From assembly GCF_009914755.1 (NCBI RefSeq), contig NC_060929.1: DNA of 64,000 nt. One strand, written 5' to 3'. The notes beneath the pieces are model-generated. The model saw only the letters and a program-made list of their open reading frames with translations. It made no database searches and was not told where the DNA came from. The position numbers were made by a program, and so were the translations under genes. This document shows, in pieces, positions 43,295 through 52,307 of this stretch (the first letter of the stretch is position 1; each line of letters opens with the position of its first letter). The DNA comes from the human T2T-CHM13v2.0 reference genome, Homo sapiens.

Positions 43295-43477
<183 letters not shown>

Positions 43478-49335: not shown

Positions 49336-49940
49336 ACATTTTAAAGTGGTGACTGAGGGCTGCCTGTCTGATGCTAGGGGCCTGTCAGTTTTGTGTTTGT
49401 GGTTTTGCACAGATTCTAACACTGTTGGTGGGAATCGTATTATTTGTTTTGATGAACTTTAATTCAGTGAGAAATAGATAAGTTATATTCATTATGTTCT
49501 ATCTACTCAGTAAATAAGTATACAGTATACTGTGAATATATTTTTCGGTTCACAAAAAACAGAAATAAAGCTGGATAGTTAAAATGTTGTTTCTAGTATC
49601 TGGAAAAAGTCATTTATGTACAATACCTTATTCTAATAATACTAGAAATATCAGAAGTTACAGTTTTAAAAAGTCATAATGATTATATAGGAATAGTCCA
49701 TCATTCTAGTAGTGTAATCTGGATATCTTTTTCAAGCTAGGAAGCACTGTAGAAATCTTTGGATTTCAGTAGTAAACAGACTGTCTCAACATTTCTGAAA
49801 CCCACACTACAATAGAGAAATGTTTTTAAAGAGAGGCATTTATTGTCCGTTTGTTGTCTTTTTCACGTTTTTGGATCATCTTTAAAAGGTCGTACAGAAT
49901 ATCTGAGCTACACTATTTTTTAAATGTAGAAAGTAGGCAC

Positions 49941-49984
49941 CTTCTGATCCGTGGTCAGACGCGTTACCCATTGCGCTACTGGCC
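49941..49984 (-). pseudogene. 5' half (about nt 2-45) of tRNA-Arg(ACG), retrocopied, inverted relative to the adjoining L1
   Basis: The reverse complement GGCCAGTAGCGCAATGGGTAACGCGTCTGACCACGGATCAGAAG matches recalled tRNA-Arg-ACG GGCCAGTGGCGCAATGGATAACGCGTCTGACTACGGATCAGAAG at 41/44. No T-arm or 3' acceptor strand is present. Confidence 0.88.
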
Positions 49985-50820
49985 ACATGAAAAAATGCTC
50001 ACCATCACTGGCCATCAGAGAAATGCAAATCAAAACCACAATGAGATACCATCTCACACCAGTTAGAATGGCAATCATTAAAAAGTCAGGAAACAACAGG
50101 TGCTGGAGAGGATGTGGAGAAATAGGAACACTTTTACACTGTTGGTGGGACTGTAACCTAGTTCAACCATTGTGGAAGTCAGTGTGGCGATTCCTCAGGG
50201 ATCTAGAACTAGAAATACCATTTGACCCAGCCATCCCATTACTGGGTATATACCCATGACCCAGCCATCCCATTACTGGGTATATACCCAAAGGACTATA
50301 AATCATGCTGCTATAAAGACACATGCACACGTATGTTTATTGCGGCATTATTCACAATAGCAAAGACTTGGAACCAACCCAAATGTCCAAGAATGATAGA
50401 CTGGATTAAGAAAATGTGGCACATATACACCATGGAATACTATGCAGCCATAAAAAATGATGAGTTCATGTCCTTTGTAGGGACATGGATGAAATTGGAA
50501 ATCATCCTTCTCAGTAAACTATCACAAGAACAAAAAACCAAACACCACATGTTCTTACTCACAGGTGGGAATTGAACAATGAGAACACATGGACACAGGA
50601 AGGGGAACATCACACTCTGGGGACTGTTGTGGGGTGGGGGGAAGGGGGGAGGGATAACATTGGGAGATATACCTAACGCTAGATGACGAGTTAGTGGGTG
50701 CAGCGCACCAGCATGGCACATGTATACATATGTAACTAACCTGCACATTGTGCACATGTACCCTAAAACTTAAAGTATAATAATAATTAATTAATTAATT
50801 AAAAAATAAATTAAAAAAAA
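49984..50820 (+). mobile_element. Young 5'-truncated L1PA (L1PA2/3-like): ORF2 C-terminus, 3'UTR and A-tail
   Basis: ORF2 peptides [29 protein letters not shown]... and ...KIWHIYTMEYYAAIKN-like. The 3'UTR carries 'gatgacGAGttagtgggtgcagcgcacc'. TSD aaagtaggcacctt at 49930-49943 and 50818-50831. Confidence 0.95.
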
Positions 50821-52136
50821 GTAGGCACCTTATTTCTATTTTATTTCTATGTATGCACAAAAATAAGGCAAGATGCTAGTAGGAGTCTGTAAAATTGCAC
50901 TGTGAAGTAGGGTGATAGGAAGAGCACAGTTTGAGTCTAGGCTCAATTGCTTTAGGCTAACTGCTTTTTCTCTCTGAACTTCATTTGTAAAACTTAGGTA
51001 ATGAAGACCTACCTTTATGGTTGTTGTAAAGAATATGTAGTGGCTTCTTCGTAGTCTTTGATTAGTAAATGTTTGTTTTCCTTTCAGCTTTCCTTTTGGA
51101 CCTATTTACAGTTAGTTTATTACATTTTCTCATTTTCCAGTCTTTGAAGAATTTGTGACTTATCACCACCTACTTAAACATTTTTTGTGCCTCTTAATCT
51201 CTCTTGGAGGCAGAGTAGTTACTATAAAGATTTAAGCTCAGCTATATATTTCCTGTTACTTAAAAAGATACTTTATACTTGGCCATTCTTAAAAATTAAG
51301 TTTTGGGTCCTTTTTGTAGTTTAATTATGTACACTTCACACATCCACAATTGATCACTACATACAGATGTCCACAATTTATACGACACTACACACATTGA
51401 CATAAAATACTATGATATGAGATAATGGGATAATTTAAGAAAAAAGAAAAAAGTATTCATGTATGTTTTCTGAATAAGTTTTTCATTAAAAGCCATTTAG
51501 GCTTTTAGATCAATAAATATTATAGTTTTAAGTAGCCAGAGACTTGAGGCAATGACCATTATCTTTTAAAAAACAAATCTGAAATTTAGTTTTTATATGC
51601 ATTATTAATAAGATAACTGAAGATAAGTGAAAAAAGTACCTTTTCCCCTTGTCTTCAATAAATATTTATTACAGTGTTTATTTTATGCCAACATTATAAA
51701 CTAGATGTTAGGTCTACAATGGGGTTAATGAGATAGACAACCTGCTTTCAAGAAGCTTCCAGTTTAGTGTGAGAGAAAGGTGTTGAAACTGTTATTCCGG
51801 ATTTGGAGGATGCTGTGAAGGAGAAGCACAAGGGAAGCTGATCCACATGAATATTTCATGATGTTATTGAAGCAAAATGAAAATGACTGCTATATTTATG
51901 TTATATCTTAAGTTCAAATGTCAGGGTCAGATGAAATCTGTGATATATTCTTAATGGTTGATATCTTTACATAGAAGTTGTTTTAAATTTATATACAAAA
52001 CAGAAGCCTCAATAATTTAGTTATTATATTAAAAAGTAAAGCTGTTTGGTGTAATCTCCATCTCTCTTAACTGTTAGGAATGCCTGCTGATCATCTGTAT
52101 GCTTACACTAGCTGATAAAGTGATTGCTTGTTGTAG

Positions 52137-52307
<171 letters not shown>

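What the first reader, a model, noticed from the sequence alone, without database searches (positions are those of the whole stretch)
49930..50831. Single retro-insertion joining an inverted tRNA-Arg(ACG) 5' half to a young L1 3' end
Seen: one 14-bp TSD (aaagtaggcacctt, 49930-49943 and 50818-50831) encloses about 44 nt antisense to the tRNA-Arg(ACG) 5' half, then a sense L1PA ORF2 end, 3'UTR and A-tail. The last 3 nt of the left TSD (ctt) are also the first 3 nt of the tRNA complement. The tRNA/L1 junction overlaps by about 1 nt (ggcc/cacatg). Known: U6/L1 chimeras are co-oriented, L1 twin priming gives 5' inversions of the same L1 RNA, and 'tailless' tRNA retropseudogenes exist. Inference: the second-strand nick primed reverse transcription on a different RNA (a tRNA, annealing at AAG around nt 43-45) while the first strand copied L1. 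This would be trans twin priming, capturing a tRNA half in opposite orientation. MSH3 pre-mRNA therefore carries a near-perfect complement to 5' tRNA-Arg halves.
Basis: partly seen in the sequence, partly recalled or inferred. Interest (0 to 1): 0.8.

Follow-up and report, generated by a model that had tools for sequence, protein, structure and literature searches.

The report
Known tRNA-Arg/L1 chimeric insertion in MSH3
An old jumping-gene (L1) insertion in an MSH3 intron carried in a backwards piece of an arginine tRNA in the same event, and this very locus and its likely mechanism are already published, so it is real but not new.

Summary
An exact 14-bp target-site duplication (49930-49943 and 50818-50831) encloses 44 nt antisense to tRNA-Arg(ACG) nt 2-45 (41 of 44 identical). 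It also encloses a sense 5'-truncated L1 with the ORF2 end, 3'UTR and an A-rich tail. The tRNA/L1 overlap is 2 nt (CC), not 1.

It is not new. This exact locus is a row in Table S3 of Law & Burns (Cell Genomics 2026; bioRxiv 2025), with the same TSD, tRNA nt 2-45 and an L1PA3 label. It is one of 21 tRNA/LINE-1 chimeras, and that paper attributes the antisense ones to twin priming. Doucet et al. 2015 proposed the same model for snRNA/L1 chimeras.

My one addition concerns the template. Fifteen independent 3'-truncated Arg-ACG retrocopies in this genome end at nt 39-53. None ends in the anticodon loop. The eight I read closely share 2-6 nt with their target site. Many carry 5'-leader bases, and all keep A34 with no inosine signature. 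This favours internal priming on an unedited pre-tRNA over a pre-cleaved tRNA half.

No function in MSH3 is indicated.

The parts
49930..49943 (+). Left copy of the 14-bp target-site duplication AAAGTAGGCACCTT. Its last 3 nt (CTT, 49941-49943) are also the complement of tRNA nt 43-45, which is the primer/template microhomology.
   Evidence: the same TSD is listed in Table S3 of PMC13174262
49941..49984 (-). tRNA-Arg(ACG) nt 2-45, sense on the minus strand and so antisense to L1 and to MSH3. It is 41 of 44 identical to the intact genes and keeps A34.
   Evidence: weak Rfam tRNA match on the minus strand
49983..49984 (+). CC shared by the tRNA complement and the L1: a 2-nt junction microhomology.
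49983..50575 (+). 5'-truncated L1 holding the ORF2 C-terminal remnant (from about ORF2p residue 1091 to the stop). Its frame is broken by the 34-bp duplication.
50223..50290 (+). Perfect 2 x 34-bp tandem duplication inside the L1, private to this copy.
   Evidence: every full-span genome match among the 40 scored is about 34 bp shorter than the query, and the 29 aligned copies split at that point
50576..50787 (+). L1 3'UTR.
   Evidence: the published L1 annotation ends at the place that maps to window 50787
50788..50817 (+). Degenerate A/T-rich tail (TAA/TTAA-interrupted poly(A)).
50818..50831 (+). Right copy of the TSD.

Best explanation
This is one L1 (L1PA3) retrotransposition event in the MSH3 intron between the exons at 43360-43476 and 52199-52306.

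The minus-strand nick primed reverse transcription on the L1 poly(A). That cDNA stopped about 830 nt in. The plus strand was nicked 14 nt away. Its 3' end (...CACCTT-3') annealed to AAG (nt 43-45) of a tRNA-Arg(ACG) transcript and was extended to about nt 2-4. The two cDNA ends joined through a 2-nt CC/GG overlap, and fill-in produced the 14-bp TSD.

Shown: the single TSD, the orientations, the two microhomologies, the identity of both pieces and the uniqueness of the junction. Inferred: that the tRNA was copied at the site (twin priming on a second RNA), and the order of the two primings.

A further inference, at about 60%, is that the template was an intact, unedited, nuclear pre-tRNA primed internally, not a pre-cleaved tRNA half.
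For: (1) An exact 14-bp TSD encloses both pieces, with chance about 6e-6. Nothing resembling a separate TSD flanks the tRNA piece.

(2) The pieces are tRNA nt 2-45 in antisense, 41 of 44 identical, and an L1 ORF2 end at E = 7e-60.

(3) The junction is unique. Only 1 of 40 scored matches spans it. None of the other 15 truncated Arg-ACG loci shown abuts L1.

(4) The microhomologies are CTT at the primer and CC at the L1 junction.

(5) The published catalogue lists this locus as found both by proximity and by multi-species alignment (contemporaneous arrival), with the same TSD. All four published hg38 features map onto the window with one constant offset of 484,639.

(6) For internal priming on a pre-tRNA, I examined 30 loci. 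Sixteen are 3'-truncated Arg-ACG copies, representing 15 independent insertions. Their 3' ends lie at nt 39 (1 insertion), 43-46 (5) and 49-53 (9). None of the 15 lies in the anticodon loop (nt 32-38). The eight I read closely share 2-6 nt with their target site. At least 9 of the 14 stand-alone copies carry 5 or more extra nt beyond nt 1. In L015/L062 these 6 nt are identical to the 6 nt upstream of the gene L018/L054. All 16 loci keep A at nt 34. Inosine-34 is read as G and is rare only in early precursors (Torres 2015, PMC4446420, passages).

(7) A second published chimera, Ile(AAT)/L1PA3, shows a 5-nt overlap (TTATT) between its TSD end and the anticodon loop.
Against: Neither nick fits the L1 endonuclease consensus well. 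The published table gives AG/AAAG with 'EN motif: No', and the plus-strand site is CCTT/AT.

The tRNA piece has 3 differences in 44 nt, against about 1.2% private divergence in the L1 part. The excess is mild, with P about 0.02-0.06. It could be chance, error-prone copying of a structured RNA, or an older tRNA piece.

I could not inspect orthologous primate loci. The timing rests on one flag in a published table.

Sequence alone cannot separate priming at the site from capture of a ready-made tRNA cDNA.

In this locus no leader is visible, so the pre-tRNA reading rests on A34 and on the sister copies.

In the published set, 9 of the 16 antisense tRNA pieces end at nt 36-39. That fits loop cleavage as well as loop priming.
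Confidence: 0.8

Rival explanations
1. Twin priming as above, but the template was a pre-cleaved 5' tRNA half made by angiogenin, RNase T2 or RNase L. This is what Law & Burns suggest for the class.
For: The paper notes that tRNA pieces in chimeras are typically half-length with breakpoints like known cleavage sites. In its table, 9 of the 16 antisense pieces end at nt 36-39.
Against: Here the piece runs to nt 45, past the anticodon loop. None of the 15 independent truncated Arg-ACG copies ends in the loop. The ends coincide with 2-6 nt target microhomology in the eight copies read closely. A34 is unedited in all 16 loci, and leaders are common. Both point to nuclear precursors, not mature tRNA. 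Noll 2015 searched for truncated RNA intermediates of 5S and U2 tailless copies, found none, and favoured internal priming.
Confidence: 0.1
2. A tRNA cDNA made elsewhere, for instance by free ORF2p, was captured as filler DNA when the L1 5' end was joined to the chromosome by end joining.
For: The 2-3 nt microhomologies at both junctions also fit microhomology-mediated end joining. The weak endonuclease motifs leave room for an atypical resolution.
Against: The left boundary and its CTT overlap match the stand-alone tailless copies. Those copies have their own TSDs, so they were primed at a nick. The strong antisense bias in the published set, 16 of 21, is predicted by priming from the opposite DNA end. 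Random capture predicts no such bias.
Confidence: 0.07
3. There were two independent insertions, a tailless tRNA retrocopy and an L1 landing side by side. Alternatively, the locus is a retrocopy of a read-through transcript from a site where an L1 fragment already lay next to an antisense tRNA.
For: The tRNA piece differs somewhat more from its source than the L1 part does from its relatives (3 of 44 against about 1.2%).
Against: The only TSD encloses both pieces, and no repeat flanks either piece alone. An L1 landing beside an older tRNA copy would duplicate tRNA or flank sequence, not AAAGTAGGCACCTT on the far side. No other genomic place has the junction. The published alignment-based test scored the two pieces as contemporaneous.
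Confidence: 0.03

Closest known systems
tRNA/LINE-1 chimeric insertions (Law & Burns, Cell Genomics 2026, PMC13174262; bioRxiv 10.1101/2025.02.02.635956)
   Same: This locus is itself a row of their Table S3. The row reads: L1PA3 at hg38 chr5:80785346-80786148 (+), tRNA-Arg-CGY_ nt 2-45 on the minus strand, TSD AAAGTAGGCACCTT of 14 bp. Like most of the class (16 of 21 by my tally), the tRNA is half-length and antisense, and twin priming is proposed.
   Different: Nothing differs in kind. I differ only on the template. The paper suggests pre-cleaved tRNA halves. The words microhomology, pre-tRNA and internal priming do not occur in its main text. The data here favour internal priming on an unedited pre-tRNA.
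Inverted snRNA/L1 chimeras formed by twin priming (Doucet et al., Mol Biol Evol 2015, PMC4476161; passages read)
   Same: A 3'-truncated small RNA in inverse orientation next to a 5'-truncated L1 inside one TSD. Reverse transcription starts internally on the small RNA from the top-strand nick. The RNA and the insertion site are complementary, and truncations fall in single-stranded regions.
   Different: The RNAs there are U5, U1, U2 and U6 (7 of 30 snRNA/retrotransposon copies), not tRNA. In those cases the cleavage site fits the L1 consensus when read in the L1 orientation. Here it does not.
Classical L1 twin priming (Ostertag & Kazazian 2001; not read, known from citations)
   Same: Two reverse transcriptions start from the two ends of the staggered break and are joined by microhomology. 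The result is an inverted 5' segment within one TSD.
   Different: In the classical case both primers use the same L1 RNA, so the inverted segment is L1. Here the second template is a different RNA.
Tailless tRNA retropseudogenes (Schmitz et al. 2004, not read; Noll et al. 2015, PMC5322556, passages read)
   Same: 3'-truncated tRNA copies without an A-tail, from processed or unprocessed tRNAs, truncated in single-stranded regions, with the target complementary to the terminal 2-18 nt of the RNA. The tRNA half here has the same 3' boundary and overlap as the stand-alone Arg-ACG copies.
   Different: Stand-alone copies have their own pair of TSDs and no L1. Here the tRNA copy shares its TSD with an L1.
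U6/L1 chimeras formed by template switching or RtcB ligation (Moldovan 2019, PMC6789731, search listing only; Buzdin and Garcia-Perez as cited)
   Same: A small RNA joined to a 5'-truncated L1 inside one TSD.
   Different: U6 is full-length and co-oriented with the L1. Here the tRNA is truncated and inverted, which a template switch from L1 RNA to another RNA cannot produce.

Membership tests
tRNA/LINE-1 chimeric insertion (Law & Burns 2026) | Non-L1 RNA-derived sequence lies immediately 5' of a 5'-truncated L1 | tested here: met
   The tRNA complement ends at 49984 and L1 identity starts at 49983.
tRNA/LINE-1 chimeric insertion (Law & Burns 2026) | One TSD of 7 bp or more encloses both pieces, with a 3' A-tail | tested here: met
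   Exact 14-bp TSD and an A/T-rich tail at 50788-50817.
tRNA/LINE-1 chimeric insertion (Law & Burns 2026) | Both pieces arrive at the same time in multi-species alignments | not testable with these tools
   No primate genomes are at hand. The published table flags this locus found_by_msa_prediction = 1.
tRNA/LINE-1 chimeric insertion (Law & Burns 2026) | L1 endonuclease motif at the cleavage site | tested here: not met
   Minus-strand site CTTT/CT and plus-strand site CCTT/AT. The table gives AG/AAAG with EN motif 'No'. The motif is not required for the class: the paper found it in 6 of its 8 checked cases.
Twin priming on a second RNA (Doucet 2015 model) | The small RNA is 3'-truncated and in inverse orientation to the L1 | tested here: met
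   tRNA nt 2-45 on the minus strand, L1 on the plus strand.
Twin priming on a second RNA (Doucet 2015 model) | The top-strand primer end is complementary to the RNA at its truncation point | tested here: met
   CTT at 49941-49943 is both the TSD end and the complement of nt 43-45.
Twin priming on a second RNA (Doucet 2015 model) | Microhomology where the two cDNAs join | tested here: met
   CC at 49983-49984.
Twin priming on a second RNA (Doucet 2015 model) | Reverse transcription of the small RNA takes place at the nick, not elsewhere | not testable with these tools
   This needs biochemical or reporter assays.
U6/L1-type template-switch chimera | The small RNA is co-oriented with the L1 | tested here: not met
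   The orientations are opposite.
Stand-alone tailless tRNA retropseudogene | Its own TSD pair directly flanks the tRNA piece | tested here: not met
   The right side of the tRNA piece is L1, and no repeat of the left flank occurs there. The 3' truncation with target microhomology is met.

The most novel reading that the evidence does not exclude
Antisense tRNA/L1 chimeras, this one included, may not be made from stress-type tRNA halves. They may instead arise when the second nick primes internally on nascent, still unedited (A34) pre-tRNAs in the nucleus. If so, the 'half' length is set by where a pyrimidine-rich DNA end can pair with a purine-rich single-stranded stretch. That would tie the published chimera class to the older tailless retropseudogenes. 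It would also make position 34 of A34 tRNAs a built-in marker of which tRNA pool L1 samples. A bolder reading is that the 41/44 antisense match in MSH3 pre-mRNA binds Arg-tRNA fragments. It is not excluded, but nothing supports it (about 2%).
Probability: 0.55. Interest if true: 0.35.

Novelty: already known. Interest (0 to 1): 0.12.

Why it matters
The locus is a clean example of L1 copying a second RNA from the other side of its own break. The example and the class are already catalogued, so confirming it changes little.

What remains open is which tRNA species is copied. The unedited A34, the leader bases and the target overlaps in the sister copies give a simple sequence test that could be applied to the whole published catalogue.

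The 44-nt piece sits deep in an MSH3 intron. There is no sign that it affects splicing or MSH3 function.

Tried and rejected
ARAGORN on the region found no tRNA. The Rfam scan gave only a sub-threshold tRNA match plus two chance snoRNA-like matches.

Pfam found nothing in the two short ORF2 pieces. The search against solved structures settled their identity instead.

I tested whether the insertion sits inside an older L1. A 15-nt match at 49419 to the L1 at 50136 turned up, but about 1 kb of flank on each side gave no BLAST match to five related L1 loci. I treat the 15-mer as chance or a very old remnant.

I tried to use the Ile(AAT)/L1 chimera as a second test of A34 editing. There nt 34 lies inside the TSD overlap and so comes from target DNA, which makes it uninformative for editing. 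It remains useful for the microhomology.

I did not build an L1 consensus. Age was estimated from pairwise distances only.

Orthologous primate sites could not be examined because no such collection is available.

Literature searches: 'tailless retropseudogenes'; 'twin priming' + tRNA + chimeric; inosine / precursor tRNA / ADAT / tRNAArg; retropseudogene / inosine / tRNA / LINE-1. In one search's listing, neither the Noll 2015 paper nor the Law & Burns paper contains the word inosine. Schmitz 2004 was not in reach, so I cannot say the A34 argument is absent from print.
Full report
**What is in the sequence**

The 14-mer AAAGTAGGCACCTT stands at 49930-49943 and again at 50818-50831, with no mismatch. 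Even if each end may slide by 20 nt, an exact 14-mer bracketing the insert has a chance of about 6e-6. In the whole 64-kb window I found 38 distinct exact direct repeats of 14 nt or more spaced 500-1500 nt apart. Apart from this one and a 15-mer at 49419/50136, the listed ones are T-runs or pairs that I recognise from memory as Alu against Alu.

Between the two copies lie three things:
- 44 nt of tRNA complement;
- an L1 3' end;
- an A/T-rich tail.

**The tRNA piece**

A whole-genome pattern search with the 44-mer at 49941-49984, allowing up to 3 mismatches, found 11 places: this locus and 10 others. All 10 carry the same sequence at exactly 3 mismatches, and the reversed control pattern found none. 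ARAGORN calls an intact tRNA-Arg(acg) at the match in 6 of the 10 and nothing in the other 4.

The window therefore holds the antisense of tRNA-Arg(ACG) nt 2-45, 41 of 44 identical. All three differences are transitions: sense G9>A, a D-loop A>G, and U33>C. ARAGORN sees no tRNA in the window. The Rfam tRNA model scores 15.5 bits against a gathering score of 29. Both are expected for a half.

**The L1 piece**

Of 40 scored genome matches to 49925-50060, only the locus itself spans the whole query. The other 39 start at query position 57-59. Nine of 9 related copies read ...AAAA(A)CCACATG at that point.

L1 identity therefore begins at 49983. The CC at 49983-49984 belongs equally to the tRNA complement (CTGGCC) and to the L1. 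The overlap is 2 nt, not about 1.

Other features of the L1:
- The translation of 49984-50259 matches human ORF2p residues 1091-1181 at E = 7e-60, and the frame ends at 50575.
- An 806-nt query of the L1 part raised 2,986 candidates, of which 40 were scored. The full-span matches are about 93% identical only because every one lacks a perfect 34-bp tandem duplication at 50223-50290.
- Pairwise distances to the 29 nearest copies, without any consensus, give a private branch of about 1.2% for this copy. The range over all 30 sequences is 0.9-2.7%, and the mean pairwise distance is 3.2%.

**One event or two**

The only TSD encloses both pieces. The tRNA piece has L1 on its right, and nothing there repeats its left flank. 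An L1 landing beside an older tRNA copy could not place AAAGTAGGCACCTT on the far side of that copy.

No other place in the genome carries the junction. None of the other truncated Arg-ACG copies abuts L1. The flanks are not part of an older L1.

A template switch from L1 RNA to a tRNA would give a co-oriented tRNA. The inverted one needs a second primer or a ready-made cDNA.

The plus-strand 3' end ...CACCTT pairs through CTT with AAG at tRNA nt 43-45. Extended to nt 2-4 and joined to the L1 cDNA through CC/GG, it yields exactly the sequence seen.

**It is already in print**

[quoted passage not shown] These were the abstract and outline, sections 11 and 18, passages found by term search, and Table S3 sheet 7.

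The paper reports 21 tRNA/LINE-1 chimeras. It says most tRNA pieces are half-length and antisense to the L1, and it proposes twin priming. By my tally of Table S3, 16 of 21 are antisense and 5 of 21 are sense.

One row is this locus:
- L1PA3 at hg38 chr5:80785346-80786148 (+);
- tRNA-Arg-CGY_ nt 2-45 of 76 at chr5:80785302-80785345 (-);
- TSD AAAGTAGGCACCTT at 80785291-80785304 and 80786179-80786192, 14 bp;
- cleavage AG/AAAG, EN motif 'No';
- found both by proximity and by the alignment-based prediction.

A single offset of 484,639 maps these four features onto window 49930, 49941, 49985 and 50818.

Eleven years earlier, Doucet et al. (PMC4476161, passages read) described 3'-truncated, inverted U5, U1, U2 and U6 copies next to 5'-truncated L1s within one TSD. 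They proposed initiation on the small RNA from the top-strand nick, helped by complementarity to the insertion site. Seven of their 30 snRNA/retrotransposon copies fitted that model.

Neither the kind nor the instance is new.

**What I can add: which RNA was copied**

Law & Burns suggest pre-cleaved tRNA halves. Their main text does not contain the words microhomology, pre-tRNA or internal priming.

I searched the genome with a whole Arg-ACG gene given by reference and read the 30 resulting loci:

| Class | Loci |
|---|---|
| Intact or near-intact Arg-ACG genes | 7 |
| Diverged full-length copies | 2 |
| A different Arg isoacceptor | 5 |
| 3'-truncated Arg-ACG copies | 16 |

Two of the 16 truncated copies (L079, L080) share flanks with each other and so count as one insertion. 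Eight further unlisted hits show the same match profile and probably belong to the same segmental duplication, although their flanks were not read. That leaves 15 independent insertions.

Their features are as follows:
- **3' ends.** They lie at nt 39 (1 insertion), nt 43-46 (5, including this locus) and nt 49-53 (9). None lies in the anticodon loop, where the known tRNA-half nucleases cut.
- **Target overlap.** In the eight copies I read closely, the TSD end overlaps the tRNA complement by 2-6 nt: CTT here, then TAGA, CTA, CTA, TCTTCT, CTTCT, TCTT and CC. Chance gives about 0.3 nt.
- **Leader bases.** At least 9 of the 14 stand-alone copies carry 5 or more extra nt between tRNA nt 1 and the TSD. 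In L015/L062 the six extra nt (TCGGTT) are identical to the six nt upstream of the gene L018/L054. L013 and L060 share CGAGTT, against CGACTT upstream of gene L012.
- **Position 34.** All 16 loci keep A at nt 34.

Mature tRNA-Arg(ACG) carries inosine at position 34. Reverse transcriptases read inosine as G. It is infrequent only in early precursors that still have leader or trailer (Torres et al. 2015, PMC4446420, passages read).

These points favour internal priming on an intact, unedited nuclear pre-tRNA. Noll et al. 2015 (PMC5322556, passages read) argued the same for tailless retropseudogenes.

One more published chimera, Ile(AAT)/L1PA3, shows a 5-nt overlap (TTATT) between its TSD and the anticodon loop. 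There nt 34 lies inside the overlap and says nothing about editing.

The argument has limits:
- This locus itself shows no leader, because the cDNA joins the L1 at nt 2-4.
- In the published table 9 of the 16 antisense pieces end at nt 36-39, which fits loop cleavage as well as loop priming.
- I could not read Schmitz et al. 2004.

**Points against or unexplained**

- Neither nick fits the L1 endonuclease consensus. The minus strand reads CTTT/CT and the plus strand CCTT/AT, and the published table says 'No'.
- The tRNA piece has 3 differences in 44 nt, where about 0.5-0.9 would be expected from the L1 part. P is about 0.02-0.06. None of the three is at a CpG. I have no firm explanation. Chance, or error-prone copying of a structured RNA, seems more likely than an older tRNA piece, given the TSD.
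- The order of the two primings cannot be read from the sequence.
- Orthologous loci could not be examined here.

**Function**

The element lies in the MSH3 intron between the exons at 43360-43476 and 52199-52306, in the sense orientation for the L1. The pre-mRNA therefore contains a 41/44 complement of the tRNA 5' part. Nothing in the data suggests that this matters, and about 15 similar copies lie elsewhere in the genome.

**Verdict**

Both the kind of event and this instance are already known. Interest is low.

Noticed in passing
window 50223-50290: A perfect 2 x 34-bp tandem duplication inside the L1 ORF2 remnant shifts the frame by one base. Every full-span match among the 40 scored genomic L1 hits is about 34 bp shorter than the query. 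It is therefore private to this copy, made either at insertion or later by slippage.
   Followed up: partly
L013/L059, L014/L064, L015/L062, L021/L066, L060, L065, L067-L069, L071, L072, L076, L078, L079/L080 (own genome): Fourteen stand-alone 3'-truncated tRNA-Arg(ACG) retrocopies have their own TSDs. Their 3' ends cluster at nt 43-46 and 49-53. Many carry 5-8 leader-like bases, and all keep A at nt 34, so none shows an inosine signature.
   Followed up: partly
L079, L080 and eight further hits (contigs C4, C9, C13, C14, C21): One truncated Arg-ACG copy (nt 2 to about 39-42) recurs at 10 or more places. L079 and L080 share the same flanks. The eight others show the same match profile, but their flanks were not read. 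The copy was evidently carried along by segmental duplications.
   Followed up: no
window 49941-49984: The tRNA piece differs from its source genes at 3 of 44 non-CpG positions, while its four CpGs are intact. This is a mild excess over the roughly 1.2% private divergence of the adjoining L1 (P about 0.02-0.06).
   Followed up: partly
PMC13174262, Table S3, sheet 'tRNA': In several rows the TSD columns seem displaced by a row. For example, the chr5:86372886 row carries TSD coordinates on chr6, and the chrX:107695404 row carries coordinates near chrX:65017944. The row for this locus is self-consistent.
   Followed up: no
L058, also L018 positions 169-244 (own genome C6:27082650-27082723): An Arg-ACG gene-like copy about 1.3 kb from an intact gene has a one-base insertion in the anticodon stem region. 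ARAGORN still calls it, with the anticodon at position 35.
   Followed up: no
window 49419-49433 and 50136-50150: An isolated 15-nt exact match to the L1 lies about 500 nt upstream of the insertion. The surrounding flank gave no BLAST match to related L1 loci.
   Followed up: yes
L081 1501-1660 (own genome C11:91925820-91925976): The published Ile(AAT)/L1PA3 chimera has a TSD that ends in TTATT, identical to the complement of anticodon-loop nt 34-38 of an intact tRNA-Ile(aat) gene (L086). That is a 5-nt primer/template overlap.
   Followed up: yes
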